Shown piece by piece: positions 25,656 to 59,673 of a DNA stretch of 64,000 nucleotides; within the stretch, counting starts at the first letter, position 1, and each line of letters opens with the position of its first letter. This DNA is from Pseudomonadota bacterium (GTDB lineage: Bacteria; Pseudomonadota; Gammaproteobacteria; Steroidobacterales; Woeseiaceae), in NCBI GenBank assembly GCA_038531945.1, contig JBCBBH010000001.1:147456-211455 (forward strand), read 5' to 3'. Both the position numbers and the translations under genes were made by a program. The notes beneath the pieces were generated by a model. That model made no database searches and was not told where the DNA came from. It was given only the letters and a program-made list of their open reading frames with translations.

Positions 25656-25661
25656 TTCTTC

Positions 25662-25737: not shown

Positions 25738-25739
25738 AA

Positions 25740-25866: not shown

Positions 25867-25872
25867 AACACT

Positions 25873-25949: not shown

Positions 25950-25955
25950 AACACT

Positions 25956-26033: not shown

Positions 26034-26058
26034 ACGTTTCGAAACCGGAGCGCTACAA

Positions 26059-26146
26059 GGAGACTCGCATGGCTGGCGTGCTTATCGGTCTTGAAAACCG
26101 TGATGTCCTGACGGGCGTGGGGGTTCGATCCCCACAGTCTCCGCCA
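26059..26146 (+). tRNA. tRNA-Ser(TGA), long variable arm
   Basis: Acceptor GGAGACT/AGTCTCC, anticodon CGGT-CTTGAAA-ACCG, long variable arm, T loop TTCGATC, CCA. Position 8 is C and the D arm is atypical. Confidence 0.65.
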
Positions 26147-26152
26147 ATCGAT

Positions 26153-26230
26153 GGTGTATCTAGCTTAATCGGCAAAAGCTCCGGGCCGTGACCCCGGGAG
26201 ATATCGGTTCGAGTCCGATGATTCACCCCA
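26153..26230 (+). tRNA. tRNA-His(GTG) with G-1 and C73, anticodon loop CCGTGAC (C33)
   Basis: G-1 is present and the discriminator is C, the His identity set. Anticodon stem CCGGG/CCCGG. The loop has C at position 33 instead of the near-universal U. One T-T mismatch in the acceptor. Confidence 0.6.
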
Positions 26231-26236
26231 ATTCAT

Positions 26237-26328
26237 GGAGATGTGGCCGAGTGGCTTAAGGCACTCGTTTGCTAAACGAGAGAGGGCTCGAAAGTCCTTC
26301 CCAGGTTCGAATCCTGGCATCTCCGCCA
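26237..26328 (+). tRNA. tRNA-Ser(GCT), long variable arm
   Basis: Acceptor GGAGATG/CATCTCC, D arm TGGCCGAGTGGCTTAAGGCA, anticodon CTCGT-TTGCTAA-ACGAG, long variable arm, T loop TTCGAAT, CCA. Confidence 0.8.
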
Positions 26329-26337
26329 TTTGTCTAT

Positions 26338-26408
26338 TGAGAGGGAGGCGGTCTCAGACGAGAGTCATAACCTCGTTGTCGTCGGTTCGAATCCGACCCT
26401 CTCGACCA
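26338..26408 (+). tRNA. tRNA-like gene with CAT anticodon and truncated D arm (71 nt)
   Basis: Acceptor TGAGAGG/CCTCTCG with A and CCA. T arm GTCGG-TTCGAAT-CCGAC. Anticodon loop GTCATAA. Only about 14 nt are available for the D region. Confidence 0.4.
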
Positions 26409-26477
26409 TTACTTTCTAGCTCAGCCGGCATAACGTCGCTCTCGCAGAGAGGCAGTCGGCGAGAAAATCGAACAACT

Positions 26478-26555
26478 ACGGCTATAGCTCAGCGGAAAAA
26501 GAGCGCGACCGTGCGAAGGTCGAGGACGGAGGTTCAAATCCTTCTAGCCGTGCCA
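26478..26555 (+). tRNA. tRNA-Arg(GCG)
   Basis: Perfect acceptor ACGGCTA/TAGCCGT, D arm TAGCTC..GAGC, anticodon CGACC-GTGCGAA-GGTCG, T loop TTCAAAT, CCA. Confidence 0.65.
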
Positions 26556-26561
26556 AACCAT

Positions 26562-26636
26562 TCAGCGATCGTCTAACCGGTAGGACACCAGACTTTGACT
26601 CTGGAAGTAGAGGTTCGATTCCTCTTCGCTGAGCCA
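26562..26636 (+). tRNA. tRNA-Gln(TTG)
   Basis: Perfect acceptor TCAGCGA/TCGCTGA, anticodon CCAGA-CTTTGAC-TCTGG, T arm AGAGG-TTCGATT-CCTCT, CCA. Confidence 0.8.
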
Positions 26637-26641
26637 ACAAC

Positions 26642-26715
26642 AGGTCGCTCTTCTAACGGCAAGATAACGGATTCCAAACCCGTGAATCGGTGTTCGACTC
26701 ACCGGCGGCCTGCCA
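26642..26715 (+). tRNA. tRNA-Trp(CCA)
   Basis: Acceptor AGGTCGC/GCGGCCT, anticodon loop TTCCAAA, T arm CGGTG-TTCGACT-CACCG, CCA. Confidence 0.75.
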
Positions 26716-26721
26716 ACAACT

Positions 26722-26796
26722 GATGCTGTGGTCAAATGGCAAAGGCGCGAGGTTGCAACCCTCGAGATGACAGTTCAACTCTGTCCAGCATCTCCA
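26722..26796 (+). tRNA. tRNA-Cys(GCA)
   Basis: Perfect acceptor GATGCTG/CAGCATC, anticodon CGAGG-TTGCAAC-CCTCG, T arm GACAG-TTCAACT-CTGTC, CCA. Confidence 0.8.
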
Positions 26797-30013: not shown

Positions 30014-30089
30014 GAATCGATAGCTCAATCGGCAGAGCACCCGGCTCTTACCCGGGAGGTTGTGAGGTCGGAACTCACTCGATTCACCA
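30014..30089 (+). tRNA. tRNA-Lys(CTT), T loop GTCGGAA (non-canonical T54)
   Basis: Perfect acceptor GAATCGA/TCGATTC with A and CCA. Anticodon CCCGG-CTCTTAC-CCGGG. T stem GTGAG/CTCAC, but the loop starts with G rather than T. Confidence 0.6.
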
Positions 30090-30095
30090 AACAAT

Positions 30096-30170
30096 AGCCC
30101 GATAGCTCAGCAGTAGAGCACCGCTCTCACAAAGCGGAGGTCGGTGGTGCAACCCCACCTCGGGCGACCA
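30096..30170 (+). tRNA. non-canonical tRNA-like gene, anticodon CAC (Val-like)
   Basis: Anticodon CCGCT-CTCACAA-AGCGG. The D loop AGCAGTA lacks GG and the T loop is TGCAACC, the same co-variation as in the Phe-like gene at 24451. A1-G72 mismatch. CCA encoded. Confidence 0.45.
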
Positions 30171-30307
30171 CTTTTGACGCAATTCCGTCATACCGAGGTC
30201 TGAATTGTCGCCAAGTTCTGCGGACCGGGTTCTTTGAATTCCCGACTGGCGCGCAACGCTAACCATCGCCGCGCGTGTACCGAACGAAACGGCATTCTCA
30301 CCGCCAC

Positions 30308-30384
30308 TGGAAATTAGCTCAGATGGGTAGAGCATACGACTCATAATCGTACGGTCGCAGGTTCAACTCCTGCATTTCCCACCA
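30308..30384 (+). tRNA. tRNA-Met or tRNA-Ile2 (CAT)
   Basis: Anticodon TACGA-CTCATAA-TCGTA. Canonical D and T arms. The 1-72 pair is a T-C mismatch. CCA. Confidence 0.7.
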
Positions 30385-32728: not shown

Positions 32729-32804
32729 GGTGAATGTAGCTTAATGGCAAAGCCCCAGGCCGTGACCCTGGAAGATGCCGGTTCGACCCCGGTGGTTCAC
32801 CCCA
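32729..32804 (+). tRNA. tRNA-His(GTG) with G-1/C73, anticodon loop CCGTGAC (C33), second copy
   Basis: G-1 plus discriminator C. Anticodon stem CCAGG/CCTGG with the same C33-containing loop as the His gene at 26153. One G-G mismatch at 7-66. Confidence 0.55.
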
Positions 32805-32810
32805 AACACT

Positions 32811-32888
32811 AGCCGTCTGAAGGGAATTGGCATACCTACCTGTCTTAGAAACAGGTGCTTCTCGGTTCGACTCCGAGGGCGGCTACCA
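32811..32888 (+). tRNA. Leu-anticodon (TAG) tRNA with short variable arm (class-I-like)
   Basis: Leu-type D loop (GGAATTGGCA) and A73. Perfect anticodon stem CCTGT/ACAGG with loop CTTAGAA. It has a 5-nt variable loop in place of the long arm that all bacterial tRNA-Leu normally carry. Confidence 0.55.
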
Positions 32889-37358: not shown

Positions 37359-40300
37359 CTACTGCGATGTCAGCGCGAATACCACCTCGACCGTGGAGTC
37401 ATCAAAAACAATGATGTCGCTGCGTCCATCGCCATCGACGTCTCCCATGAAACGAGGGTTCGCATCGAAGGTAAACCCGCGATTGGAAGAGAACTCCGGC
37501 ACCCACTCGCGAATGGTGCCGAACACGCCTCCCTGTCCAGGGTTCAACGAGTAGTAGACGGCACCCGGTTCGGTCGGTGACAGAGACCCAAACCCGACGA
37601 GGTCTACGTAACCGTCGCCATCAACATCCGCGAAGTAGCGCGGATCTTCGAGCGGCTGCCACCCATCATTGATAGAGAACTGACCTGAGATCGTGCGGAC
37701 CGAACCGATTGGCGTCAGTGCGCCGTTTGGTGCTTCCTCTCTATCGATAGCCGGTGACAAGAGCACATCGTTGTCCGAGAACGCGACAACATCGTCTTGT
37801 CCATCGTTGTTGATATCCACGATGACGCGCGGGTTTTCGTCAACATCCCAAGATGGGCCGACAAACAGTGTGTCGTACGTTGCAGTGTTCGAAAACAATG
37901 GCGGCGTGCGATCTGGTCGTGCCCTCGCCAAGGCGGTTTGGGTAAATCCGAAACCGATAATGTCTTCGAAGCCGTCGCCATTCACATCAGCCAGGAGTCG
38001 CGGTGCACCCTCAGTCCAGCCGCCCGAGTTGGGGCCGAATCGACGGATCGCAAAATTGCCTGGGTCTGGGTCGACGAAACCGGTGCCCGATGCCTGCGCG
38101 ATAATGACGCCGTTATCGCTGAACGCGACGATGTCATCGAGCCCGTCACCGGTCATGTCCGATAGATAGCGCGGGTTATTGCCGAAGTCCGAGTAACCTT
38201 GAGCAGGACTGTAATCCTCGACGCATGGATCGCCGTCACACAACACCGTGAATTGACCGCTACCATCGTTGACCGCGATGTAAACACCATCCGCTCCGAA
38301 CACGACGATATCCAAAGCAGCACTGCCGGATACGTTGGCCAGCACGCGGCGTTGAGCGTCCTTGTCGAAACTCGCTCCGCTGGCGAAGTCTTCGAATTGT
38401 CTTACCGCCGTATCAAAGCCTGCACCATTGGACAAAGCGATGTAGGTGCCATCCGGACCGAACCCAACAATGTCATCGCGCTGGTCACCGTTGACGTCTC
38501 CGATCAAGCGAGTGTCATCGTTCTCGTTCCAGCCGCTGTTAAACGAAATTCCGATATCCGCGGAGAATCGATTTCGAACGCCGACGGTAAAGTTCCGGAA
38601 CTCGGAGGGTGCATCCTCAAGATCTGCGGTCACGGTCACCGTGTACAAACCGTCGTCGGCGTACGTATGCACGACCGGAACCACGATGCTCGGAGTACAT
38701 GGCGAGCACGGCTGCGACTCGAAGTTTGGCGTGCCGTCACCCCAGTCAATGACCAAACGGGTAACCGCACGATCACTGCCCCCGGATGCAACGGCGGAAA
38801 CCGTGCCACCGAAGGTACTCTCCGGACCGAAGAAGGTAGCGGTGATGTCGACACGATCCGGGCCGGTCGGATTTTGATCGGTGTTGTCAGGTTCGCCGTC
38901 TCCATCGGTATCAGCGCGACTCGGGTCGGTACCGCGATTAAACTCCTCAAGGTCGGTCAGCGTGTCGCCGTCGGAATCGCTGTTCAGCGGATCGGAGAAC
39001 ACCTGCCGCACCGCGCCTTCCACTGAGATCGCCCATCCGTCCCGGGTTTCTTCGAAGTCGTTCAGACCGTCACCATCGGTGTCGACGTCTGTCGCCGATG
39101 TGCCCAAAAGAAACTCTTCGCGATCGAACAACTCATCACCATCCTGATCTCGCAAGTAGACCAGCGAAATTCGGTCGCGCGGCATCATGTTCAGATCGTC
39201 GAAATCTGTCGTTGGATCGTCAGCACTCTCGCTACTGGTGAATACATACCAGAACCCGTCGGTGATGCTCATCGTCTCGACACCACGAACACTGTTCACG
39301 GTCTCGCGCGACTGACCGGTCGGAACACCGTTCTCATCCACAATGTCTGTCACCGTCGTCGTGTACGGAATACCGAGGATCGACATCAAGTCTCCCATCG
39401 GCGTACCGATCACCTGATTGTTCACGTCTCGCGGCACGTTGGTCGCCACTTGGTAGCTTTCAGTTGTCCGATCGCCACCCAAGACGTTGGTGTTGGCACC
39501 GTAGTCGATGGTGACCTGCGCGGTTTGTGCAGCGACGTTCATGGAGACCATGCCCCACGTAAGGCCATCCGCCGTCCCGATGTTGGTCATCGAGTAATTC
39601 GTGGCCGTGAACAGCAGTCCGCTTGGGTCTCGCATCAACGCCTCCAGGTTGTCAGCGTTCTCGAAACTTCTTCGAAAGTCCTGTTCGAACGATTGGCCGT
39701 TGGGCAACTCGGTTGCCATGTTCTCCGGGTTTTCAACAACGAGACTGCCGAGCGTCTGCACTGTACCGCGTGCTGTGCGGCGACTCGCACCGATCGTCAG
39801 ATCTTCAAGATTGAAGGTCAGATTCGACGTGTTGGTGACACGAATCCGCGTGGTCAGCGTGCCACCATCGGTGACGCGATTCTGAGAGGACGTGTCATTG
39901 GTCAGTCGGCCGTACTCCTGCCGAGAGTTCGACGCCGACGCGCGTGTCACGGACGTCGATTGCTCTTGCGTCACAGAAGCGGAGACACTGGACTCCGTTC
40001 CTGACTTCGCGGTCCCGCCGATCCCGGTGGGACTGGCCGAAGCACTGGCTTCTGCGTAGACGCGTGTGCTGGCCGACAGCGTTGCGGAGGTTGCCGTGGT
40101 ATCGGATCGCGAGAACGAAGTCTCCTGACCTCTTTCATAACTCGAGGAATACGTTTCGCCAGCAGTACTGCCGGTCGTGTCAATCACGTTGATATCTATT
40201 GACGGATCAGCGATCACCTCGATAGAGACGGATGGCAGATCCGCGATCAACGGGTCGAACCCGCCCTGGTTGGTTTCGCGAAAATCATCAAGCCCATCGC

Positions 40301-40823
40301 CATCGGTGTCCGCAAGTCTCGGAGACGTTCCGATCGCCATTTCCTCGGCATCGGTGAGGCCGTCACCGTCGAAGTCGGTGCTGGAACTGGCAGTGACACA
40401 ATCGATAGTGACGTTCGTGACATCGGCGTTCGCCGTGCCAATTCCGTTGGCAACCGTACACGTCTGGGTGGGATTCGATGGTTGCGTGAGCACCGTCACG
40501 TCGTAGGTCGAACCACTATCGATTTCCGTCGCGAACGTGAATGTACCGTTGGCAGTTACGGGCAGGTTATCGGTCGCATTGTTCTGCAACACGAGTCCAT
40601 CGCCTTCCAAACCACCCACCGTGCCGCCGACCGACACTTGGGTTGTGGGCGTTGGTGTTGGCGTCGGAGTGGGTGTCGGTTGCGATCCACCACCGTCACC
40701 GCCACCACCGCCGCCGCAGGCAGCAATGGCAAGGCTCATTAAGGTCAGCCCTGCGCTTTTTATGATCTTGTATTTCATGGTCTTCTCCGAGCCCGCACCA
40801 GCAGGCGAAAAAAGTGGGTTCAC
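37359..40823 (-). CDS. giant surface lipoprotein with FG-GAP (integrin-alpha-like) and thrombospondin-type-3-like Ca-binding repeats
   Basis: Lipobox LAIAACGG followed by a Gly/Pro-Thr linker. Multiple D-x-D/N-G-D-G-xxD-IV FG-GAP motifs (ADVNGDGFEDIIGFG, GDVDGDGRSDIIVFD, VDINNDGQDDVVAF). Several DTDGDGLxDxEE TSP3-like motifs. Confidence 0.7.
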   Translation of the reverse strand: MNPLFSPAGAGSEKTMKYKIIKSAGLTLMSLAIAACGGGGGGDGGGSQPTPTPTPTPTPTTQVSVGGTVGGLEGDGLVLQNNATDNLPVTANGTFTFATEIDSGSTYDVTVLTQPSNPTQTCTVANGIGTANADVTNVTIDCVTASSSTDFDGDGLTDAEEMAIGTSPRLADTDGDGLDDFRETNQGGFDPLIADLPSVSIEVIADPSIDINVIDTTGSTAGETYSSSYERGQETSFSRSDTTATSATLSASTRVYAEASASASPTGIGGTAKSGTESSVSASVTQEQSTSVTRASASNSRQEYGRLTNDTSSQNRVTDGGTLTTRIRVTNTSNLTFNLEDLTIGASRRTARGTVQTLGSLVVENPENMATELPNGQSFEQDFRRSFENADNLEALMRDPSGLLFTATNYSMTNIGTADGLTWGMVSMNVAAQTAQVTIDYGANTNVLGGDRTTESYQVATNVPRDVNNQVIGTPMGDLMSILGIPYTTTVTDIVDENGVPTGQSRETVNSVRGVETMSITDGFWYVFTSSESADDPTTDFDDLNMMPRDRISLVYLRDQDGDELFDREEFLLGTSATDVDTDGDGLNDFEETRDGWAISVEGAVRQVFSDPLNSDSDGDTLTDLEEFNRGTDPSRADTDGDGEPDNTDQNPTGPDRVDITATFFGPESTFGGTVSAVASGGSDRAVTRLVIDWGDGTPNFESQPCSPCTPSIVVPVVHTYADDGLYTVTVTADLEDAPSEFRNFTVGVRNRFSADIGISFNSGWNENDDTRLIGDVNGDQRDDIVGFGPDGTYIALSNGAGFDTAVRQFEDFASGASFDKDAQRRVLANVSGSAALDIVVFGADGVYIAVNDGSGQFTVLCDGDPCVEDYSPAQGYSDFGNNPRYLSDMTGDGLDDIVAFSDNGVIIAQASGTGFVDPDPGNFAIRRFGPNSGGWTEGAPRLLADVNGDGFEDIIGFGFTQTALARARPDRTPPLFSNTATYDTLFVGPSWDVDENPRVIVDINNDGQDDVVAFSDNDVLLSPAIDREEAPNGALTPIGSVRTISGQFSINDGWQPLEDPRYFADVDGDGYVDLVGFGSLSPTEPGAVYYSLNPGQGGVFGTIREWVPEFSSNRGFTFDANPRFMGDVDGDGRSDIIVFDDSTVEVVFALTSQ

Positions 40824-40923
40824 TCTCTAATGCGAAAAGCGCTCAGAAATCGTTTAAAAAAACCGCAACTCCGGTCGATTGCCATTGGAAACAATGTGTT
40901 ATGTTTGCCTTGGAGGGGAGGCG

Positions 40924-41478
40924 ATGACTGAAAACAGCGACATCACGCAGCTGATTTCTCAATGGCAGGCTGGGGACGAGGCTGCGTTGGAGCAGCTCGC
41001 ACCATTTGTGTATAGCGAACTGAAACGCCTAGCTCGCAGCTATATGAATCGCGAACGGGTCAATCACACGCTGCAAGCCACGGCGTTGGTCAACGAGGCA
41101 TTTCTGCAGTTGGCCGGCACCGATGCGGACTTCGAGAGTCGTTCACACTTTATGGTAGTTGCCGCACGAATGATGCGCCGCACACTGGTGGACCATGCGC
41201 GTGCGCTCCACAGTCAAAAGCGCGGGGGCGGCGAACGCCCCGCCACGCTGCATGAGGATGCTGTTGGCGGCGCCGAACGATCGGATGAGTTGCTCGAGCT
41301 CGACCTCGCACTCGACCGGCTGGCTGGTCATGATCAACAGCTCGCTTCTACAGTGGAGCTAGTCTACTTCGGTGGACTCACGTACGAAGAAGCTGCGGAG
41401 CACCTCGGGCGCTCTCGCTCGTCTGTGTACAACGATCTACAGTTCGCGAAGGCGTGGCTAAGAAGAGAGATCGGGTAA
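40924..41478 (+). CDS. ECF-type RNA polymerase sigma factor
   Basis: N-terminal ITQLISQWQAGDEAALEQLAPFVYSELKRLA is characteristic of an ECF sigma subgroup. A region-4 HTH lies at the C-terminus. Start re-set to ATG 40924 with a GGAGG RBS. Confidence 0.7.
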   Translation: MTENSDITQLISQWQAGDEAALEQLAPFVYSELKRLARSYMNRERVNHTLQATALVNEAFLQLAGTDADFESRSHFMVVAARMMRRTLVDHARALHSQKRGGGERPATLHEDAVGGAERSDELLELDLALDRLAGHDQQLASTVELVYFGGLTYEEAAEHLGRSRSSVYNDLQFAKAWLRREIG

Positions 41479-42684: not shown

Positions 42685-43369
42685 ACGTCAGTCGAGTACG
42701 TAGGAACACTACCCTCTAGTGAGAGTGAGTCAAAGCTGTGCATGCCAGGGCGTCCCTGCGGAGTGCTGCGTCGATCGACAACGACGCCGCGCTAAGTGAA
42801 AGCGTCTGCTGTCAGCCGAACGCCGCCACGATGTGCTTTTGTTCAAGCGCTTCGAGGAAGTCAGAGTACGGTTGTTCGCCGAGCATGCGAATCGCCGTGT
42901 CCTGCCAGTTCGCATCCAACCAAACGGCGAGTTCGGTGGCCTCGCTAGCTCGACCTCGGTGAATCAACCCAAGCCGCTCTGAGATCTGGTTTGGTGCCAG
43001 CCAGCGGAACTGTCGATGGCGATGCGTGCGCGCTTCCTCTCGGAAAAAGTTAGGCATTGCGTGCATAGGTGGCTCTCCCTTTTGCAGCCGTATTTACGTT
43101 AGAAAGCCATGCGCCATTCGGCAAGTGACATTTTTATTGCAGTTATTGCATGAATCTGAAACAACAACTTGGCGGAAACACATAACAATCCACTTGAGGA
43201 GAGTTCTATTTTCTCGCCGAAATCCGCGCGTGTTTCTCGGCAACTCTCGCAACCCGTGGGAAGTGGCGGCTTGGCCAGAGATCTTCGTTTGGCCGTCAAT
43301 CTCAAACGGTCGCGCGTTGTCGATAGTGGCTGGTATAGACTGTTGCGATCACTCCAAAAGGAATCTCGC

Positions 43370-43924
43370 ATGAAACTTCATTTTGTTTTGTTCACCACTG
43401 CGTTTTTATGCGCGTCCGTCGCGACTGCGGATGACCACGCGATGACGCTTACGAGCACGGACATCGAGCACGGTAGCTTCATGGATAAGGCGCAGGAGTT
43501 TGCGGGGTTCGGATGCACGGGTGACGACCAGTCACCACAACTTTCCTGGTCAGGTGCACCGGAAGGCACCAAAGCGTTTGCCGTGTTTGCGTATGATCCC
43601 GACGCCCCAACAGGCAGCGGTTGGTGGCACTGGCAGCTCATCAATATCCCAGCAGACGTAACCGGACTTGCGGCTGGAGTCGGCAGCGCAGATTCGGAGG
43701 ATTTGCCAGAAGGCAGTCAGCAGATGAGAAACGATTACGGCAACGCGGCGTTCGGCGGCGCATGCCCACCGCCAGGTGATGGCGCGCATCGTTATCAATT
43801 TACGGTATTCGCTTTGTCGCAGGTGCTCGAGATTCCGGCCGATGCGTCCGCGGCTTTGACCGGTTACATGGTGAACGCGAACAGCCTCGCGTCGGCGACG
43901 ATCGAAGCGCTGTACAAGCGCTAG
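43370..43924 (+). CDS. YbhB/YbcL-family (PEBP / Raf-kinase-inhibitor-like) periplasmic protein
   Basis: Signal peptide. PEBP motifs (FAYDPDAP, GAHRYQFTVFAL). Start re-set to ATG 43370 with an AAGGA RBS. Confidence 0.8.
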   Translation: MKLHFVLFTTAFLCASVATADDHAMTLTSTDIEHGSFMDKAQEFAGFGCTGDDQSPQLSWSGAPEGTKAFAVFAYDPDAPTGSGWWHWQLINIPADVTGLAAGVGSADSEDLPEGSQQMRNDYGNAAFGGACPPPGDGAHRYQFTVFALSQVLEIPADASAALTGYMVNANSLASATIEALYKR

Positions 43925-48767: not shown

Positions 48768-49919
48768 TTGCTTGCCATGACCACAAGTTTGCAAAACCAA
48801 CTGGATCCCGATTTTGTATTCGATGTGGTGGTCGTCGGAGCTGGTGCCGCGGGGATCGGGGTAGCGGTCGCGTTGAGACATGCGGGTATCGAGAAATTTA
48901 TTGTGTTGGAGCGTGATCGAGTGGGTTCCTCGTTTGCGAATTGGCCAGCGGAAACGCGCTTTATAACGCCATCCTTTCCAACCAACTCAGTGGGGATGCT
49001 CGACCTGAACTCTGTTGCGATTGGGGTATCGCCCGCCTTCAGTATGGAGGTCGAACACCCAACTGGACCGCACTACGCAGAGCACCTCGGGGCAGTAGCT
49101 GACCATTTTGATTTACCGATCTATGAGCAGACGGAGGTCAACAGCGTTACACGTCAGAATGCCACTTTTGACCTCGATACGAGTGAGGGCACCTTACGAT
49201 CAAAGCATCTGATCTGGGCCGCTGGCGAGTTTCAATTTCCTCGTAAAAATGGCTTTGCTGGCGCTGAGCATTGTCGACACACAGCGACTGTCGCGAGCTA
49301 TGACGACATCGAGGGCGACGATGTCATCGTGATCGGAGGATTTGAAAGCGGGATCGATGCAGCGTATCACCTCGCCTATCGCGGCAAGCGCGTTCGCGTC
49401 TTCGATAGTCGTTGCCCGTGGGAAAGCACGAGCTCAGATCCGAGCATCACACTATCGCCATTTACTTTGGAGCGCTTCCGTGAGCCCGTATTCTCCGAGC
49501 AAGTCTCGCTATTCCCAAACACACCGGTGACTTCAGTTGAGCAAGTCAGTGATGGTTATCACGTCATCGACGGCAATGGCGCTACTCACCGCACGAGCGC
49601 GTCTCCGTTATGGGCTGGTGGCTTCGACGGCGGTCATAGTCAGATTGGAAATTTGTTCGTATCCCGCCCAGATGGCCTGCCCGAATTGAGCGAAAACGAT
49701 GAATCGACACGAACGCCAGGGCTATTTCTTTGCGGGCCTTCGGTGCGACACGATAACCATGTGTTCTGTTTTATTTACAAGTACCGACAACGTTTCGCGG
49801 TCGTTGCCAAAGCCATCGCAAACTCGCTGGACGTACCTGCAGAGGGACTGAAGGAATACCGCGTATGGGGAATGTATCTCGACGATCTCTCTTGTTGTGG
49901 AGGTGAATGTGTATGTTAA
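48768..49919 (+). CDS. FAD/NAD(P)-binding oxidoreductase (flavin monooxygenase-like)
   Basis: N-terminal dinucleotide-binding motif FDVVVVGAGAAGIGVA and a second GG motif (VIVIGGFESG). Cys-rich C-terminus. Confidence 0.7.
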   Translation: MLAMTTSLQNQLDPDFVFDVVVVGAGAAGIGVAVALRHAGIEKFIVLERDRVGSSFANWPAETRFITPSFPTNSVGMLDLNSVAIGVSPAFSMEVEHPTGPHYAEHLGAVADHFDLPIYEQTEVNSVTRQNATFDLDTSEGTLRSKHLIWAAGEFQFPRKNGFAGAEHCRHTATVASYDDIEGDDVIVIGGFESGIDAAYHLAYRGKRVRVFDSRCPWESTSSDPSITLSPFTLERFREPVFSEQVSLFPNTPVTSVEQVSDGYHVIDGNGATHRTSASPLWAGGFDGGHSQIGNLFVSRPDGLPELSENDESTRTPGLFLCGPSVRHDNHVFCFIYKYRQRFAVVAKAIANSLDVPAEGLKEYRVWGMYLDDLSCCGGECVC

Positions 49920-50248
49920 GTGTGAGACACGAAAATGAATGGACCGCGGCCGTACGACGCAAAAGACGAGCGCACATGCTGCGACCCGCTTGGCTAGGCC
50001 AAACGACCGCGAGCGCCTGCTGGATTGCCAGCATGATGCTTTACGGACTTAGCTCCGCGGGAGACTGGTTGCAGCTCACCGCTGCTTCGGCCTGGTTGTT
50101 CGCCAATCTTGCGGAGCTACTCACCGACGCTTCTACAGTTTCAGCACAACAGAGCACAGCGGTAAACCCCGACACAACCTGTATCGGTGATGAGGCGTGA
50201 GCAGTCTGGTACAGTCAGAGAAGCTTTGGTTTCAGGAGTTTTGAAGCG

Positions 50249-50464
50249 ATGATGAAGGGACCGATTCCCACGACTTACGAAGAATGGCGCCACTGCATCA
50301 CAGTGGAATGTGGCATTCCTTTGACGTCGGACTACATCGCCACGCGCCTCGGTGTATGGCGTGAAGAGAAAACCCAGGAAACTCGGCGTTTCCGCGAACT
50401 CTACGGCGATGCGTACTGGCGCACGATCATCAGCTGGTTTGAGCGGGCTGAGAAAGAGGCCTGA
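50249..50464 (+). CDS. hypothetical small protein (71 aa)
   Basis: AGGAG RBS 9 nt upstream. No known motif. Confidence 0.3.
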   Translation: MMKGPIPTTYEEWRHCITVECGIPLTSDYIATRLGVWREEKTQETRRFRELYGDAYWRTIISWFERAEKEA

Positions 50465-50652
50465 AGGCTGCCTTTACTCGAATCGGGCAAATCGCGTCGA
50501 ATCCACCCTAGCAACCTCATCGCTCAGTACCGCTTTTGTTCAGAGTAGCATCACGTATCCTTTTGCGTAGCGAGTGAGATAAAGCCTCGACTGGCGTCAC
50601 TTGTGTAGAACGCCGCACCGGCAAAGTCTCAATTACGCAAAGGGAGATTGCT

Positions 50653-52503
50653 ATGCAGAATAATGAGTCCAGGCGCCAGTCAGCTTACGATGTTCGTGTT
50701 GCTGCTGCACAAGTCGCCAGAGATCGCGTTCATCCGGAACATGTTGCGAACGGAGACGAGCAGAAGTTTCGACGAGACGATAGCGGATCGAACATACCGA
50801 GCTATCTCATCAGTTACACCAAGGGTTTGCCGCACGACCACAAAACCGGCCTCGTGCAAGACCCTGCGCACTTCAATCAATTCGTTCGCGCAATCGACAG
50901 CGGCGACCCCCGTGATTTTGTCGATACGCCACTTGGTTTTGCAGCCAACACAGGGTCTCACCACCTTAACTGCGATGGGCTACAGAAGTATTGGAAATCG
51001 CACAAAGCGAAAAAAAATAACGTCAGTATTCGCGCATGGGAGAGCCAAGGCGCGGGCAATACATTCGATCTGGAGGGGCCGGATGCACAGGCGACGTTTA
51101 TGCCACCAGCACCAGCGCTGGGCAGCGCGGAGCTGACCGCTGAAATGGGCGAGGTCTACGCCCAAGCCCTACTGCGCGATGTGCCGTTTACTGCAATGAG
51201 CCTCGGAACCAACGCGTCCGCTACTGACAAGAACCGCGTCAAGACAATGGTCGACAAACTCAACCAGTTGGACTGGTTCGCCGGCAACGTGGAACCAAAT
51301 GAATTCGAAGCCAGTCGTTTACGCGAGTCGCTGCTACCGCACACCGCGTTTCGTGGTATCACGCCTGGCGATGATGTGGGTCCGTATATTTCGCAATTCC
51401 TCTTAGCCGGCAATCGCGGTATCAACGGCAGAGATGAAGAGCGAAATCGCGCCGATGGCTTGGTGACCTACGGCGCCATCAATATAGACCAACGCGTTCG
51501 TTTCGCGTGCCCCGGTGTCGATTACATGACGACGTGGCCTGAATGGCTGGATGTACAAAACGGCGCGGATTTTCGAGGGTTGGAATCTTACGAGGACAAA
51601 CCCGCGCGTCGATTTATCACTACACCGCGCGACCTGGCTACATATGTGCACTACGACGCTTTGTACGAGGCCTACTTGAATGCGTGCTTGTTCTTGCTGG
51701 CCGAGGGTGTCCCGTTTGATCCAGGCATACCGTTCCAGGCACCGGATGCAAAAGACCACCAACAAGGATTTGCCCATTTTGGAGGGCCGCATATTTTATC
51801 CTTGGTCACCGAGGTGGCGACGCGAGCGCTGAAAGCGGTTCGTTATCAGAAGTTCAATGTGCACCGTCGCGGCCGGCCGGAATTGCTCGGTGGACGCCTG
51901 GAGAAAGCGAGCCACCTCGTTAGTGATGCACCTGAGCTAGGGGAGATGTTCGACGCGTTGCATAGCGTTGGAATTCTGGATCATGTCCGCAAGCACAATA
52001 AAAAACAAAACAAAGGAGAGAAGACCGCCGCGCTCAGAAAAGGCACGTTGCTCTTGCCAATGGCGTTCTGTGAAGGTTCGCCGATGCATCCGGCCTATGG
52101 TGCAGGTCACGCGACGGTGGCCGGCGCCTGCGTGACGATCCTAAAAGCATTTTTCGATCACAAGCGAGTATTGGAGGTCGCTAGCCCGGGTAAGGCGTTT
52201 GTGCCCAACGCGAGTGGTACAAAACTCGTAGAGGTTCCAGTGCTCAAGCCAGCGCCCACACCGACTAACCCCAATGCATCCGCACCTGGAGTTCTGACTG
52301 TCGAGGGTGAACTCAACAAACTCTGCTCAAACATTTCAATCGGCCGAGATTGGGCGGGCGTTCACTATTTCACTGACTATATCGAGTCGGTACGCATGGG
52401 TGAAGAAATCGCAATCGGCATCTTGGAGGAACAAAAGCTGACTTACGGCGAGAACTTCTCTATGACTGTCCCGCTTTTTGACGGCGGTAGCGTTCGCATC
52501 TAA
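50653..52503 (+). CDS. vanadium-dependent haloperoxidase-like / PAP2-superfamily protein
   Basis: Three acid-phosphatase/V-haloperoxidase motifs in order: K-x7-RP (KFNVHRRGRP), P-x-Y-G-A-G-H-A (SPMHPAYGAGHATVAGA), and R-x3-G-x-H-x3-D (GRDWAGVHYFTD). The 616-aa size is typical of bromoperoxidases. Confidence 0.55.
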   Translation: MQNNESRRQSAYDVRVAAAQVARDRVHPEHVANGDEQKFRRDDSGSNIPSYLISYTKGLPHDHKTGLVQDPAHFNQFVRAIDSGDPRDFVDTPLGFAANTGSHHLNCDGLQKYWKSHKAKKNNVSIRAWESQGAGNTFDLEGPDAQATFMPPAPALGSAELTAEMGEVYAQALLRDVPFTAMSLGTNASATDKNRVKTMVDKLNQLDWFAGNVEPNEFEASRLRESLLPHTAFRGITPGDDVGPYISQFLLAGNRGINGRDEERNRADGLVTYGAINIDQRVRFACPGVDYMTTWPEWLDVQNGADFRGLESYEDKPARRFITTPRDLATYVHYDALYEAYLNACLFLLAEGVPFDPGIPFQAPDAKDHQQGFAHFGGPHILSLVTEVATRALKAVRYQKFNVHRRGRPELLGGRLEKASHLVSDAPELGEMFDALHSVGILDHVRKHNKKQNKGEKTAALRKGTLLLPMAFCEGSPMHPAYGAGHATVAGACVTILKAFFDHKRVLEVASPGKAFVPNASGTKLVEVPVLKPAPTPTNPNASAPGVLTVEGELNKLCSNISIGRDWAGVHYFTDYIESVRMGEEIAIGILEEQKLTYGENFSMTVPLFDGGSVRI

Positions 52504-52712
52504 TTTGCAAAAAACTGTAGAGCTCGTTCTCGCGGAAGTGAGAGCGGGCTTTTTTGCGTAGGCGTTTGTCAACAGAGGCGCGCTGAATCGTTCGACTGCC
52601 TACCCGTCTAGTCGGTTTGGTGCTAGGTTGGGGTCTTTGAGCCGAACCAGATGGCGCCACGCCATTACACGCTGGTCTAGATGATCTATTTTGGTGAGCG
52701 ACTAGCCCGACT

Positions 52713-56310: not shown

Positions 56311-59300
56311 CTATTGCAGCAGCCTGACTTCGTAGTCGCCGGCGCTACTGTCGCCCAAGGCACCAACTACAATTCTGTACGTGCCGGATTGGCTGACATC
56401 ACATCCGAACACATCAGGACCACAGTCAAATGCCACGGTAGTTCCATCCGTTCTTCGGTTGATCAAACGTCCATTCGGCGCGTACAACCACACTTCTGGC
56501 GTGAATCGATCTCTCGTGTCAGTGATACGAAGCTGGAAAGTGGGATTGGCGGTCTGGTCGAAAATGAAGCTATCGAGGTCACCGATAGTTAAATCACCAG
56601 TTACCGCGCCATTGCTTACCAACGCACCATTCTCGTTGCTATTCGGGACATCCACGAATCGAATCTCGTAGTCACCGACGCTTTGATCACCTAACGCACC
56701 CACAACCAGTCGGTAGGTTCCCGTCTGTGCAATATCACAGCCGAAAACCTGTGGACCGCAATCGAATGCGACCGTAGTCCCATCCGTTCTTCGGTTGATC
56801 AAACTTCCATCCGGCGCATACAACCAAACCTCAGGCGTGAATCGATCCAGCGTATCGATTACGCGAAGATGCAATGCAGTTTCTGCTGTCCCGTTGAATA
56901 CGAACGTATCCAGATCACCGACCGTCAGGTCTCCCGTCACACTACCATCGTTGACCAACGCACCATTCTCGTTGCTGTTCGAGACATCCACGAATCGAAT
57001 CTCGTAGTCACCGACGCTTTGATCACCTAACGCACCCACAACCAGTCGGTAGGTTCCCGTCTGTGCAATATCACAGCCGAAAACCTGTGGACCGCAATCG
57101 AATGCGACCGTAGTCCCATCCGTTCTTCGGTTGATCAAACTTCCATCCGGCGCATACAGCCAGACCTCCGGCGTGAACGTGTCGCTCGTATCCGTTATCC
57201 GGAAATGAACCGCCGACTCTTCGCGAATTGTAAACTCGTATTCATCCAAATCACCCGCCACGTCAACCGAGCCAACAATCAGTACCTCATCAGTCATTGG
57301 TAGTATGGGCGTGACTGTTGTTCCCCCGGTCATCCCACACTGGATATTGGACAAAGGCGAAGTCCCCGCGATCTCGCTGACGCCGGCGACTGCAAAGCAG
57401 TACGTCTGGTTTGGCAACAAACCTTCGACAGCGGCGGATGTTTCGCCTGATGAAGCAACAGCAAATGGCGAACTGCCCGACTCCGTGTCAAAAACCACAT
57501 ATTCAGCATCCACTGGGTAGTTCATCGGAACTGTCCAGTTCAACTGCAACGACGTATCTTCGCTCGAAGGAATGGCGAGCAAAACCGGACTTTCAATGCT
57601 CTGCTCGCTATTCGGTGGTGTTGTGGGTACTGAGCATATGAACCCAGAGTTCTCCGGCACCGGTGACACGCCTCCGTAGATATCCTCGGCCGTCACTGCG
57701 TAGCAGTACTCGCTTCCAACAGTGAGATTCGAGTCAAAAAACTGCGAGTTGGCACTGGTAGCAACTCTTACTGGCAACTCTTCCGATCCAGATTCGAATC
57801 GCCAGACTCCGTACTGAATAACTGAGGTTTCCGGAGGCGCTTGATCCCATGCCACAACGAGTTCGGCTGAGCGGGTCGACGGCGCGACCGAAACGCCTTG
57901 CACTGCGGCTAGTTCCTGGACAGGATCATCCTCCTCACAACCGATTCCGTTTTGCGAAAAAAGCTCGTATTCATTCTCCGCAATGACAAGCTCTTCTCTA
58001 TAGAAAATCAAATCCAAGGAGCCACCAGCAGACCAACGAAACCCACCGTACGTTGAGCGCGAAAATGGGCAGGCCGCATCTGCGTCAAAGATCATCGAGG
58101 CTTCAGCAACAGCCTGCGATTGCAGGAAAGGTCCTGCCAGACCCAGGATGCGCATATTTGCCTGCAGTCCTGGCGCGATAGTCAACGTAAGCGCGCCCTC
58201 GATTTGATCAACATTCTGCACGTCGAATCCCGGCTGCCCTCGATCAAACTCAATGCTGTAGCCAGAACTTCGCCGCCAATGCACGCCAGTCGATATGTTA
58301 CTGAGCGTGGAAACGAGCCGGGGCTCGGCCTGGACATCGAGCGCGAGCTCTGCAGTCACAACCGGCTCAATTTCAAATGTCACAGGTATTGGTCCAGGAA
58401 TCGGAATCGTCCCTGCAATCGGCAGGCGGACTTCCGACATGAACTGTTCACTATCTAGCAGGTTGCCCTCAACGATTAGCTCAATTGTTGACGTGAGATC
58501 CGTCTCTGCGTAAAGACGCCACTCCTCAACTCGCGGTAACAGACCAGCATCGCCAAAAGTAATTGCGAATTCGAATTCGGGATCGATACTGAAACTTCCC
58601 GTCAGTGCAACTAGACTGGATTCAGTTTCCCGAAGAATAAACCTTTCGGAGTCCCCCAAGTCTATTCGGAATACGCCGCCGACGAGTGCCTCGCTACGAC
58701 CGGGTTCTTGTGACGCCGCTGGAGCCGTCAGACTGCGTACAGCAAGTCGCTGCTCGCCGATACTCGAGGCGACTACCGTTCCAGAACGGACAATCTCCGG
58801 AAGCGCAACGTCTTCAGTTTCGAAACGCGTATTACCGCTTGGCAACACCTGACTCGAAATAATTCGGCGCCCAAAAAACACAGGACTTGTCCCTGCGCCG
58901 TTCGCGAGCAAGATAGTGCCGACACCAAAGCCCGAAATGTCAGCTGTCGATTCAAACTCGAGTAGCTGAACGGAGGGTTGAAACCCCAGAATGCTATTGA
59001 CCTGATCAGCCGACAGTGTAACGACGTCGGGCTGATAAACTAGTGGTGCTTCTGAAACTACCGTTGAAAAAATCGCTCGATTGTCATCGAGGAGAATCGT
59101 ACACCTCGTCCCATCTACCGAATCGCAATTCTGCCAGCGAACAAACCGGTTACCGACTTCCGGCGCAACATCAACCGTTACTGTGGTACCGACCGGAAGC
59201 GTCGCGAGGCATTGGCCACTCTGGGATAAGCAGTCCAAAGTTTCGCCTGACTCTAGGCTGTACTGTGCATCACCGAATGTACTGACCAACAACTGAACTT

Positions 59301-59673
59301 GCTGCTGAAGCACCTCAACCGTTCGTTGCACACTTCCTTCGTTGCCAGCGCTATCTTCGGCCCGGTAAGTGAGTGAGTAGACACCAGCAACTGAAGTATC
59401 AACCTCTCCAGTAATAGTGACGCCAACATTTCCGTCTACGTTGTCTTGGGCGGTTGCGCCGTCCTCTCTGTAGATGCCTTCGAACGGCAAAGTAACTGCC
59501 GATTCACCCACCAAGGTAACGACGGGTGGCGTTGTATCAGTATTGCCTGGGGGCGGTGGCGTCGGGCTGTCGCCATCCCCGCCGCCACCTCCGCCGCCAC
59601 ATCCCGCCAAGACAATCGCCGGCAAAGCGAACAAGAGGACTCTTAGCCATTTGCTGTTGGATTTATTTTTCAT
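56311..59673 (-). CDS. giant surface lipoprotein with DUF5011/HYR-like Ig domain and three C-terminal PPC-like repeat domains
   Basis: Lipobox LAGCGG followed by a G-rich and Pro-rich linker. N-terminal DNVDGNVGVTITGEVDTSVAGVYSLTYRAEDSAGN (DUF5011-like). Three near-identical repeats of about 112 aa (GDLTVGDLDTFVFNG...RLVVGALGDQSVGDYEIRFVDV). Confidence 0.65.
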   Translation of the reverse strand: MKNKSNSKWLRVLLFALPAIVLAGCGGGGGGGDGDSPTPPPPGNTDTTPPVVTLVGESAVTLPFEGIYREDGATAQDNVDGNVGVTITGEVDTSVAGVYSLTYRAEDSAGNEGSVQRTVEVLQQQVQLLVSTFGDAQYSLESGETLDCLSQSGQCLATLPVGTTVTVDVAPEVGNRFVRWQNCDSVDGTRCTILLDDNRAIFSTVVSEAPLVYQPDVVTLSADQVNSILGFQPSVQLLEFESTADISGFGVGTILLANGAGTSPVFFGRRIISSQVLPSGNTRFETEDVALPEIVRSGTVVASSIGEQRLAVRSLTAPAASQEPGRSEALVGGVFRIDLGDSERFILRETESSLVALTGSFSIDPEFEFAITFGDAGLLPRVEEWRLYAETDLTSTIELIVEGNLLDSEQFMSEVRLPIAGTIPIPGPIPVTFEIEPVVTAELALDVQAEPRLVSTLSNISTGVHWRRSSGYSIEFDRGQPGFDVQNVDQIEGALTLTIAPGLQANMRILGLAGPFLQSQAVAEASMIFDADAACPFSRSTYGGFRWSAGGSLDLIFYREELVIAENEYELFSQNGIGCEEDDPVQELAAVQGVSVAPSTRSAELVVAWDQAPPETSVIQYGVWRFESGSEELPVRVATSANSQFFDSNLTVGSEYCYAVTAEDIYGGVSPVPENSGFICSVPTTPPNSEQSIESPVLLAIPSSEDTSLQLNWTVPMNYPVDAEYVVFDTESGSSPFAVASSGETSAAVEGLLPNQTYCFAVAGVSEIAGTSPLSNIQCGMTGGTTVTPILPMTDEVLIVGSVDVAGDLDEYEFTIREESAVHFRITDTSDTFTPEVWLYAPDGSLINRRTDGTTVAFDCGPQVFGCDIAQTGTYRLVVGALGDQSVGDYEIRFVDVSNSNENGALVNDGSVTGDLTVGDLDTFVFNGTAETALHLRVIDTLDRFTPEVWLYAPDGSLINRRTDGTTVAFDCGPQVFGCDIAQTGTYRLVVGALGDQSVGDYEIRFVDVPNSNENGALVSNGAVTGDLTIGDLDSFIFDQTANPTFQLRITDTRDRFTPEVWLYAPNGRLINRRTDGTTVAFDCGPDVFGCDVSQSGTYRIVVGALGDSSAGDYEVRLLQ
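56330..57330. repeat. three tandem copies of a 336-bp coding repeat, two nearly identical
   Basis: Long identical DNA stretches begin near 56655 and 56990 (period about 335-336 bp). A third, more diverged copy lies at 56320-56650. Confidence 0.7.

What the first reader, a model, noticed from the sequence alone, without database searches (positions are those of the whole stretch)
50653..52503. Putative vanadium-dependent haloperoxidase in an alginate-degrading background
The protein has the three PAP2/V-haloperoxidase active-site motifs in the correct order and spacing (K..RP, P.YGAGHA, R...G.H...D) and is 616 aa, the length of a bromoperoxidase. Bacterial V-haloperoxidases are rare and mostly come from marine algal associates.
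Basis: partly seen in the sequence, partly recalled or inferred. Interest (0 to 1): 0.55.

Follow-up and report, generated by a model that had tools for sequence, protein, structure and literature searches.

The report
Vanadium bromoperoxidase gene in marine gammaproteobacterium
The gene almost certainly encodes a vanadium-dependent bromoperoxidase of the red-alga/cyanobacterium type, but it is an ordinary, already-annotated member of a large and widespread bacterial family and has no detectable link to the alginate genes nearby.

Summary
It matches crystallised vanadium bromoperoxidases over its full length: Acaryochloris marina 5LPC at E 7.6e-199 (59% identity) and Corallina 1QHB/1UP8 at about 1e-164. 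An AlphaFold model superposes on them at TM 0.82-0.86. PAP2 acid phosphatases, fungal VCPO and Streptomyces NapH-type enzymes are not significantly matched. Every vanadate-site residue is conserved (K400, R408, G485, H486, R565, H571). So are the two bromoperoxidase-type second-shell residues (R397, H479) and the AmVHPO substrate-pocket residues (E130, Q371, F373).

The gene has its own Shine-Dalgarno sequence and a strong terminator, is under strong purifying selection, and shares no neighbours with homologues elsewhere. It therefore appears to be a stand-alone, leaderless, non-selective HOBr/HOI generator.

An alginate locus (PL6-like, PL17 oligoalginate lyase, KdgK-like kinase, transporters) does exist but lies more than 31 kb away.

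The rarity claim is wrong. NCBI already names the identical protein "vanadium-dependent haloperoxidase", and the family has 858 clusters at 50% identity (E<=1e-30) across at least ten phyla.

The parts
50653..52503 (+). Coding sequence of the 616-aa vanadium-dependent bromoperoxidase homologue (stop codon included)
   Evidence: ORF list. phmmer against PDB: 5LPC 7.6e-199, 1QHB 2.3e-164. AF2 model pTM 0.85. Foldseek TM 0.82-0.86 to A. marina and Corallina VBPOs. Identical protein in NCBI named vanadium-dependent haloperoxidase.
50641..50646 (+). Shine-Dalgarno sequence AGGGAG, 6 nt upstream of the ATG
   Evidence: Read directly from the sequence. GGAG and its spacing are the only upstream elements conserved with the 85%-identical homologue.
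51040..51042 (+). Codon for E130, equivalent to AmVHPO Glu139 (substrate pocket / hypohalite relay residue)
   Evidence: Residue mapping. Invariant in the 40-sequence alignment. 69 of 70 in the genome-derived set. Role taken from PMC11871015.
51763..51771 (+). Codons for Q371-G372-F373, equivalent to AmVHPO Gln399 and Phe401 (pocket residues contributed across the subunit interface)
   Evidence: mapping. F373 is 70/70 and Q371 is 62/70 conserved. Role taken from PMC11871015.
51841..51879 (+). Motif I, R397-YQ-K400-FNVHRRG-R408-P409: vanadate-binding Lys and Arg plus the i-3 halide-specificity residue (Arg, the bromoperoxidase type)
   Evidence: R397 = AmVHPO R425 = Corallina officinalis R395 (R397 in C. 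pilulifera numbering). K400 = K428/K398. R408 = R436/R406. Counting along the 1QHB chain reproduces K398 and R406.
52087..52113 (+). Motif II, H479-PAYG-A484-G485-H486-A: the bromoperoxidase-type extra His (H479), the vanadate-contacting Gly, and the catalytic acid-base His (H486)
   Evidence: 70/70 conserved. H479 = AmVHPO H513 = Co H478. A484 replaces Co Ser483, exactly as in the active AmVHPO.
52345..52377 (+). Motif III, R565-DWAGV-H571-YFT-D575: vanadate-binding Arg and the His that covalently ligates vanadate
   Evidence: 70/70 conserved. R565 = Co R545. H571 = Co H551.
52520..52555 (+). Intrinsic terminator: a 14-bp GC-rich hairpin followed by a U6 run, starting 17 nt after the stop codon
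   Evidence: RNA fold gives -27.5 kcal/mol, z = -5.25, with 0 of 200 shuffles as stable. The homologue in L004 has a hairpin of unrelated sequence plus a U7 run at the same place, z = -5.81.

Best explanation
The gene encodes a cytoplasmic (leaderless) vanadium-dependent haloperoxidase of the Corallina/Acaryochloris bromoperoxidase clade. It probably forms a homo-oligomer. Inferred mechanism, by homology to the solved enzymes: vanadate is bound covalently to H571 and held by K400, R408, the G485 backbone, H486 and R565. H2O2 adds to give a peroxovanadate, with H486 acting as acid-base catalyst. Bromide or iodide attacks the activated peroxide to give HOBr or HOI (or an enzyme-associated equivalent). 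That product then halogenates electron-rich organic molecules, or reacts with a second H2O2 to give O2. Arg at the i-3 position (R397) and His at position 479 are the bromoperoxidase-type residues, not the chloroperoxidase-type ones. I therefore expect oxidation of Br- and I-, with poor Cl- oxidation at seawater chloride levels. The gene has its own ribosome-binding site and its own terminator and has no conserved partner genes. It therefore appears to be a stand-alone, non-selective hypohalite generator rather than a tailoring enzyme of a biosynthetic pathway. The most likely physiological role is consuming H2O2 while producing reactive bromine or iodine for chemical defence or signal interference, with volatile bromocarbons as by-products. 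What is shown: homology, fold, residue conservation, the transcription signals at both ends of the gene, and purifying selection. What is inferred: vanadate binding, halide preference, oligomeric state, localisation and physiological role.
For: Full-length phmmer hits only to vanadium bromoperoxidases: 5LPC 7.6e-199, Corallina about 1e-164, Ascophyllum 1.7e-47. Identity to AmVHPO is 59.2% over 593 aligned positions, and E139, Q399, F401, R425, K428, R436, H513, G519, H520, R588 and H594 are all conserved. These residues are invariant across 40 close homologues and 69-70 of 70 across genome-derived homologues. The AF2 model has pTM 0.85, and Foldseek gives TM 0.82-0.86 to the A. marina and Corallina VBPOs. 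The role of the i-3 Arg in halide specificity comes from PMC11871015. A Shine-Dalgarno sequence is present and the terminator has z = -5.25. None of 11 window neighbours appears at any of the 82 homologous loci other than the three copies of this same locus, and no neighbour family recurs in more than 4 loci. Purifying selection is strong: pN 0.086 against pS 0.79 versus the 85%-identical homologue. There is no N-terminal hydrophobic stretch, and the N-terminus aligns with the start of the AmVHPO chain in the crystal entry.
Against: No biochemical data exist for this protein, and I found none for any non-cyanobacterial member of its subclade in the literature searched. Halide preference cannot be read reliably from sequence: PMC11871015 stresses that it is not set by one residue, and PMC13519999 notes that AmVHPO shows some chlorination. 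The AF2 monomer has pLDDT<50 exactly at the active-site and interface loops (130-139, 369-379, 401-405, 479-483), so site geometry is not confirmed by the model. No promoter was recognised on the + strand. The physiological role is conjecture.
Confidence: 0.85

Rival explanations
1. It is physiologically a chloroperoxidase: it oxidises chloride efficiently at seawater concentrations rather than being limited to bromide and iodide.
For: AmVHPO itself shows weak chlorination (8% MCD conversion; also noted in PMC13519999). Halide specificity depends on second- and third-shell and inter-subunit effects that cannot be read from sequence.
Against: The i-3 residue is Arg (R397), as in the bromoperoxidases of A. 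marina and Corallina. In AmVHPO only the R425S change gave strong chlorination, and Trp occupies this position in the chlorinating enzymes cited in PMC11871015. H479 occupies the position that is Phe in fungal VCPO (my own knowledge of CiVCPO F397 and AnVBPO H411; not tested here). R397 is conserved in 69 of 70 homologues.
Confidence: 0.08
2. It is a site-selective halogenase acting in a pathway with its neighbours: the upstream YpdA/FMO-like flavoprotein as H2O2 supplier or co-tailoring enzyme, and the downstream Fe-alcohol dehydrogenase and 4HBT thioesterase.
For: All of these genes are on the same strand within 4 kb. Algal bromoform loci pair VHPOs with an NAD(P)H oxidase (my own knowledge; not tested here). 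The pocket residues E130, Q371 and F373, which bind arenes in the AmVHPO R425S variant, are conserved.
Against: A strong terminator separates the gene from the ADH/thioesterase pair, and 734 nt holding two small ORFs of unknown status separate it from the flavoprotein. None of these neighbours occurs beside any of the 82 other homologous loci, including the 85%-identical one. The flavoprotein scores far below every NCBIfam equivalog cut-off. The protein is remote from the selective NapH/esVHPO-type enzymes (Foldseek TM 0.13-0.22). No core biosynthetic genes (PKS, NRPS or prenyltransferase) were found among the annotated neighbours.
Confidence: 0.05
3. It is a PAP2-type phosphatase, or a non-halogenating VHPO-fold enzyme like the NapH3 isomerase, that has kept the fold but lost vanadate chemistry.
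For: There is a weak Pfam PAP2 match (E 0.044). Apo-VHPOs are known to have residual phosphatase activity, and the active sites are homologous (my own knowledge; not tested here).
Against: PAP2 scores 14 bits against a gathering cut-off of 27.2. No phosphatase is matched by sequence at E<=1 and none by fold at E<0.9. Every vanadate ligand and the catalytic His are strictly conserved across the family under purifying selection, unlike degenerate homologues. The closest relatives with solved structures are demonstrated bromoperoxidases.
Confidence: 0.02

Closest known systems
AmVHPO, the vanadium-dependent bromoperoxidase of Acaryochloris marina MBIC11017 (PDB 5LPC; mutants 8Q20/8Q21/8Q22)
   Same: Full-length alignment at E 7.6e-199 and 59% identity. 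Same fold, TM 0.84-0.86. Identical vanadate site, including Ala in place of the Corallina Ser, the i-3 Arg, and the pocket residues E139, Q399, F401 and H513. Leaderless N-terminus.
   Different: The host is a heterotrophic gammaproteobacterium, not a cyanobacterium. The query falls in a separate subclade populated by non-cyanobacterial phyla. It lacks several AmVHPO insertions in the N-terminal half and carries a short Pro/Thr-rich insertion around residues 532-545. It has not been characterised biochemically.
Corallina officinalis and C. pilulifera vanadium bromoperoxidases (PDB 1QHB, 1UP8, 7QWI, 8VH0)
   Same: E about 1e-164 over the full length. TM 0.82-0.85 and 46-47% identity. K398, R406, H478, G484, H485, R545 and H551 are all matched, as is R395.
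   Different: These are eukaryotic red-algal enzymes. Ser483 is Ala484 in the query. The dodecameric assembly of the algal enzymes was not tested here.
Ascophyllum nodosum VBPO I and II (PDB 1QI9, 5AA6)
   Same: Homologous catalytic C-terminal half (E 1.7e-47 and 2.3e-42). TM about 0.7.
   Different: Only 27-28% identity. Trp rather than Arg at the i-3 position (PMC11871015). Different N-terminal architecture.
Selective bacterial VHPOs (Streptomyces NapH1, PDB 3W36; NapH3, PDB 8CXL; XhnO11, PDB 9L8X; and the Microbulbifer/Enhygromyxa alkyl-quinolone brominases)
   Same: Same superfamily and the same vanadate chemistry. The alkyl-quinolone subclass also lies outside biosynthetic gene clusters in marine gammaproteobacteria (PMC8407465).
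   Different: No significant sequence match. Foldseek TM 0.13-0.22. The quinolone-brominating subclass is reported to carry secretion signals, whereas the query has none.

Membership tests
Vanadium-dependent haloperoxidase, Corallina/Acaryochloris bromoperoxidase clade | Full-length sequence homology to biochemically and structurally characterised members | tested here: met
   phmmer: 5LPC 7.6e-199 (query 5-616), 1QHB 2.3e-164 (query 3-616). 59.2% identity to AmVHPO.
Vanadium-dependent haloperoxidase, Corallina/Acaryochloris bromoperoxidase clade | Histidine that covalently ligates vanadate (Co His551) | tested here: met
   H571 aligns with Co H551 and the equivalent Am His. 70/70 conserved.
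Vanadium-dependent haloperoxidase, Corallina/Acaryochloris bromoperoxidase clade | Vanadate-oxygen hydrogen-bond donors Lys, Arg, Ser/Ala-Gly-His and Arg (Co K398, R406, S483-G484-H485, R545) | tested here: met
   K400, R408, A484-G485-H486 and R565. All are 70/70 conserved. The Ser-to-Ala change is shared with the active AmVHPO.
Vanadium-dependent haloperoxidase, Corallina/Acaryochloris bromoperoxidase clade | Bromoperoxidase-type second-shell residues: Arg three residues before the catalytic Lys, and the extra active-site His (Co H478 / Am H513) | tested here: met
   R397 and H479. The meaning of the i-3 Arg is taken from PMC11871015.
Vanadium-dependent haloperoxidase, Corallina/Acaryochloris bromoperoxidase clade | Helical-bundle VBPO fold | tested here: met
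   AF2 pTM 0.85, mean pLDDT 78.7. Foldseek E 3e-49 to 2e-43 and TM 0.82-0.86 against 8Q21, 5LPC, 7QWI and 1QHB.
Vanadium-dependent haloperoxidase, Corallina/Acaryochloris bromoperoxidase clade | Vanadate-dependent oxidation of halide by H2O2 | not testable with these tools
   Needs recombinant protein and an MCD, thymol-blue or phenol-red assay.
Vanadium-dependent haloperoxidase, Corallina/Acaryochloris bromoperoxidase clade | Homo-oligomeric (dimer-of-dimers to dodecamer) assembly, with active-site pockets completed by the neighbouring subunit | tested here: inconclusive
   Only a monomer was modelled. Its low-confidence segments (130-139, 369-379, 401-405, 479-483) coincide with the residues that PMC11871015 places at the subunit interface. 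This is suggestive only.
PAP2 acid phosphatase / lipid phosphatase (non-haloperoxidase) | Match to the Pfam PAP2 model above its gathering score, with K-x6-RP, PSGH and SR-x5-H-x3-D motifs in a domain of about 200 aa | tested here: not met
   PAP2 scores 14 bits against a cut-off of 27.2, E 0.044. The motifs are K-x7-RP, GAGH and GR-x5-H-x3-D. No phosphatase in PDB matches by sequence at E<=1, and by fold all score E>=0.9 with TM<=0.14.
Selective bacterial VHPOs of natural-product pathways (NapH1/Mcl24 type) | Sequence or structural similarity to NapH1-type enzymes, and location in a biosynthetic gene cluster | tested here: not met
   No sequence hit. Foldseek TM 0.13-0.22 and E 2e-3 to 2e-2. 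Neighbours are FolE2, a flavoprotein, an Fe-ADH, a thioesterase and a Zn-peptidase, and none is conserved at homologous loci.
Fungal-type vanadium chloroperoxidase (Curvularia inaequalis, 1VNC) | Detectable similarity to 1VNC; Trp and Phe at the halide-pocket positions | tested here: not met
   1VNC is absent from the sequence hits. Foldseek E 2.7, TM 0.10. The query has Arg and His at the corresponding positions (the equivalence of the Phe position rests on my own knowledge).

The most novel reading that the evidence does not exclude
This gene belongs to a large, biochemically uncharacterised subclade of Corallina/Acaryochloris-type bromoperoxidases carried by non-phototrophic bacteria: Woeseiaceae-like gammaproteobacteria, methanotrophs, Thiotrichaceae, Desulfobacterota, Planctomycetota, Acidobacteriota and Verrucomicrobiota. 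If these enzymes are active in situ, heterotrophic and even anaerobe-affiliated marine and sediment bacteria would be an unrecognised source of reactive bromine and iodine and of volatile bromocarbons. That role is currently attributed to macroalgae and cyanobacteria. In this organism the enzyme could be an adaptation to the H2O2- and halide-rich surface of the brown algae whose alginate it consumes.
Probability: 0.2. Interest if true: 0.55.

Novelty: new member of a known kind. Interest (0 to 1): 0.25.

Why it matters
On its own the gene matters little. It is a correctly auto-annotated homologue of well-studied enzymes with a fully canonical active site. Its modest value has two parts. It is a candidate robust biocatalyst from an uncultured marine gammaproteobacterium. 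It is also one example of a heterotroph-borne bromoperoxidase subclade for which I found no characterised member. If those enzymes are active, budgets of marine reactive bromine and bromocarbon production that consider only algae and cyanobacteria would be incomplete.

Tried and rejected
1. Operon with the downstream Fe-ADH/4HBT thioesterase pair. Rejected: a strong terminator follows the stop codon, the homologue has its own terminator, and these genes are absent from all other homologous loci.

2. Upstream Pyr_redox_3 flavoprotein as an H2O2-supplying partner. No support: it is only a generic YpdA/FMO-like match far below the cut-offs and never co-occurs with homologues.

3. Functional link to the alginate locus. 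Rejected as unsupported: that locus lies at about 2.3-19.3 kb, more than 31 kb away and beyond a tRNA array and unrelated genes. No recurrent neighbour of any kind was found in 478 neighbour ORFs from the homologous loci.

4. Recent horizontal acquisition or a mobile island. GC content is 0.54-0.56 across the gene and its flanks. No phage hits were found, and only 6 distant plasmid hits among 72,556 plasmids. The patchy phylum distribution and the tree still suggest older transfers.

5. Conserved upstream operator or promoter. The alignment with the 85%-identical homologue conserves only the RBS, and the sigma-70 scan found nothing on the + strand.

6. Profile libraries. Pfam gave only a sub-threshold PAP2 hit and NCBIfam gave nothing, although precomputed tables list PF22778 VCPO_2nd. 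This discrepancy is unexplained.

7. Small ORFs at 49907-50200 and 50249-50464. No family match and no conservation beside homologues.
Full report
**Observation.** The window has an ATG-to-stop ORF of 616 codons at exactly 50653..52503 on the + strand. An AGGGAG Shine-Dalgarno sequence lies at 50641-50646, 6 nt before the ATG. The spacing of the first motif is K-x7-RP. That is the spacing of the Corallina bromoperoxidases (K398...R406, recounted on the 1QHB chain), not the K-x6-RP of PAP2 phosphatases.

**What it is.**
- A phmmer search of all PDB chains returns only vanadium bromoperoxidases. The hits are A. marina 5LPC (E 7.6e-199, query 5-616), its R425 mutants 8Q20-22, Corallina officinalis and C. 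pilulifera (1QHB, 1UP8, 7QWI, 8VGX; about 1e-164, query 3-616), and more distantly Ascophyllum 1QI9 and 5AA6 (1e-47 and 1e-42).
- No acid phosphatase, fungal VCPO, Zobellia-type or Streptomyces NapH-type enzyme appears, even at E<=10 for the catalytic half.
- An AlphaFold2 model built from a 40-sequence alignment has pTM 0.85. It superposes on the A. marina and Corallina structures at TM 0.82-0.86.
- By contrast, NapH1/NapH3/XhnO11 reach TM 0.13-0.22, 1VNC 0.10, and PAP2 phosphatases at most 0.14.
- Pfam-A gives only a sub-threshold PAP2 hit (14 bits against 27.2) and NCBIfam gives nothing.

**Active site.** I used the residue numbering of PMC11871015. The 5LPC chain index equals native numbering plus 27, confirmed by the position of the R425S and R425D substitutions in 8Q21 and 8Q20. 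Mapping the query gives:

| Query residue | Equivalent |
|---|---|
| E130 | Am E139 |
| Q371 | Am Q399 |
| F373 | Am F401 |
| R397 | Am R425 |
| K400 | Am K428 / Co K398 |
| R408 | Co R406 |
| H479 | Am H513 / Co H478 |
| A484-G485-H486 | Co S483-G484-H485 |
| R565 | Co R545 |
| H571 | Co H551 (vanadate ligand) |

- The Ser-to-Ala change at 484 is shared with the active A. marina enzyme.
- All of these residues are invariant in 40 close homologues.
- Across homologues from 70 loci they are conserved in 69-70 of 70, except Q371 at 62 of 70.
- R397 is the bromoperoxidase-type residue at the i-3 position. In AmVHPO, replacing this Arg with Ser gave strong chlorination, and the paper notes Trp at this position in chlorinating enzymes.
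- From my own knowledge, H479 occupies the position that is Phe397 in the fungal chloroperoxidase and His411 in Ascophyllum VBPO. It is a second bromoperoxidase marker.
- The monomer model has low confidence exactly at loops 130-139, 369-379, 401-405 and 479-483. The paper places these residues at the subunit interface, which fits an obligate oligomer but proves nothing.

**Gene organisation.**
- A 14-bp GC-rich hairpin followed by U6 lies at 52520-52555, 17 nt after the stop codon (-27.5 kcal/mol, z = -5.25).
- The 85%-identical homologue (P0002, locus L004) has a hairpin of unrelated sequence plus a U7 run at the same position (z = -5.81). In both genomes the transcript therefore ends directly after the gene, so the downstream genes are not co-transcribed with it.
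- Upstream, only the ribosome-binding site is conserved, and no sigma-70-like promoter was recognised.
- The window neighbours are FolE2, a YpdA/FMO-like flavoprotein, two small ORFs with no family match, an Fe-alcohol dehydrogenase translationally coupled to a 4HBT thioesterase, and a Zn-peptidase.
- None of these occurs next to homologues at 65-85% identity.
- None occurs at any of the 82 loci other than the three copies of this same locus.
- All-against-all clustering of 478 neighbour ORFs found no family shared by more than four loci, and those cases reflect lineage synteny.
- The gene is under strong purifying selection: pN 0.086 against a saturated pS of 0.79 versus L004.
- GC content is uniform (0.54-0.56) across the gene and its flanks.
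- There are no phage hits and only six distant plasmid hits.

**Host and background.**
- NCBI holds the identical protein, named [quoted passage not shown]. It is recorded on a 1.03-Mb contig, and an identical copy lies on the 8.3-kb contig JBCCAX010000125.1 of GCA_039814565.1.
- A RhlE-type helicase in the window has its best named relatives in Lentisalinibacter/Woeseiaceae and unclassified Gammaproteobacteria at 72-74% identity. The host is therefore an uncultured marine gammaproteobacterium. Family-level placement is tentative because it rests on one marker.
- The "alginate-degrading background" is real. At about 2.3-19.3 kb the window carries the following:
  - a TonB-dependent receptor, TRAP transporter genes and LacI and GntR regulators;
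  - a PL6-like lyase (Chondroitinase_B, E 1.9e-111);
  - an oligoalginate lyase (NF042990, E 8e-201; Alginate_lyase plus Heparinase_II/III domains);
  - two SDRs and a PfkB kinase.
- That locus is more than 31 kb from the haloperoxidase gene, beyond a tRNA array and unrelated genes. Nothing ties the two together.

**How common is it.**
- 7,391 of the 8,000 scored candidate clusters (90% identity) have E<=1e-10.
- An exhaustive HMMER pass over 1.84 billion representatives at 50% identity finds 2,939 at E<=1e-3, 1,812 at E<=1e-10 and 858 at E<=1e-30.
- Six short peptide patterns alone recovered 77 species-level genome loci. They come from Methylococcales, Thiotrichaceae, Beta- and Alphaproteobacteria, Desulfobacterota, Planctomycetota, Acidobacteriota, Bacteroidota, Verrucomicrobiota, Chloroflexota, Acidimicrobiaceae and many Cyanobacteria, including A. 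marina itself.
- In a neighbour-joining tree, the query sits with P0002 and P0003 inside a subclade made almost entirely of non-cyanobacterial bacteria. That subclade is sister to the cyanobacterial clade containing AmVHPO, and an alphaproteobacterial clade lies further out. This is a distance tree without support values.
- Reviews still list only "a few bacteria" with VHPOs (PMC13102585). They describe the macroalgal and cyanobacterial enzymes as non-selective producers of diffusible hypohalous acid, implicated in antifouling and volatile halocarbon formation (PMC8407465).
- I found no paper characterising a non-cyanobacterial member of this subclade in the searched library. That is absence in one library, not proof.

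**Mechanism and rivals.**
- The best-supported reading is a leaderless, stand-alone vanadium bromo/iodoperoxidase. It uses H2O2 to make HOBr or HOI via a peroxovanadate bound to H571. Confidence in the enzyme class is 0.85. The physiological role (peroxide consumption, chemical defence or signal interference, with bromocarbons as by-products) is inferred and much less certain.
- Rival 1 is efficient chloride oxidation. It is possible but disfavoured by R397 and H479.
- Rival 2 is a selective pathway halogenase working with its neighbours. The terminator, the lack of conserved context and the distance from NapH-type enzymes argue against it.
- Rival 3 is a phosphatase or a non-halogenating fold relative. 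The perfectly conserved vanadate site under purifying selection argues against it.

**Verdict.** The finding is an ordinary, already correctly annotated member of a large known family, so I rate it a new member of a known kind with interest 0.25. The only angle of wider interest is the uncharacterised, heterotroph-borne subclade to which it belongs.

Noticed in passing
window 24282-26796, 30014-30384, 32730-32888 (+ strand): A dense array of 22 tRNA genes within 8.6 kb: 17 in one 2.5-kb run, then groups of 3 and 2. It includes unusual anticodons for a bacterium (Ala-AGC at 25153-25224 and Arg-GCG at 26478-26555) and a second tRNA-His. The array is interleaved with a GH31 glycosidase gene and an SPFH/Band-7 protein gene.
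   Followed up: partly
window 2358-19254: A complete-looking alginate utilisation locus. It holds a TonB-dependent receptor, a LacI regulator, an SDR, TRAP DctP/DctM transporter genes, a PL6-like lyase (11220-13457, -), a GntR regulator, a PL17 oligoalginate lyase (14377-16692, NF042990 E 8e-201), a second SDR, a PfkB (KdgK-like) kinase and a second GntR regulator.
   Followed up: partly
window 50653-52503, and homologues P0002 and P0107: Two tool sources disagree. Precomputed Pfam tables assign PF22778 (VCPO_2nd) to this family. A live hmmscan against Pfam-A at E<=1 returns only a sub-threshold PAP2 hit. NCBIfam has no matching model, although NCBI names the protein a vanadium-dependent haloperoxidase.
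   Followed up: partly
window 37359-40823 (-), 56311-59673 (-), 40879-41478 (+): Two very large predicted surface proteins (1154 and 1120 aa) with FG-GAP, TSP3, PKD, Ig-like and fn3 domains flank the region. An ECF sigma factor gene diverges from the first of them.
   Followed up: no
window 49907-50200 and 50249-50464 (+): Two small ORFs (97 and 71 aa) lie between the flavoprotein gene and the haloperoxidase gene. ORFs at these positions are called as genes in the deposited copies of this locus, the first with a different start (74 aa in the NCBI copy, 95 aa in the Logan copy). They have no family match and are absent beside all homologues, so it is unclear whether they are real genes.
   Followed up: partly
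L004 (Logan SRR26493839 contig, closest homologue at 85% identity): The closest homologue's contig also carries DUF2341 and PEBP-family genes, which occur elsewhere in the window (21886-23379 and 43169-43924; the PEBP protein is 68% identical). This suggests a related organism whose gene order around the haloperoxidase gene has been rearranged.
   Followed up: no
H1: plasmid NC_019690.1 (Pseudanabaena sp. PCC 7367), 62481-65283: A plasmid-borne haloperoxidase homologue (46% identity) matches in two pieces. An IS630-family transposase is annotated under the match, so this is apparently an insertion-disrupted copy.
   Followed up: no
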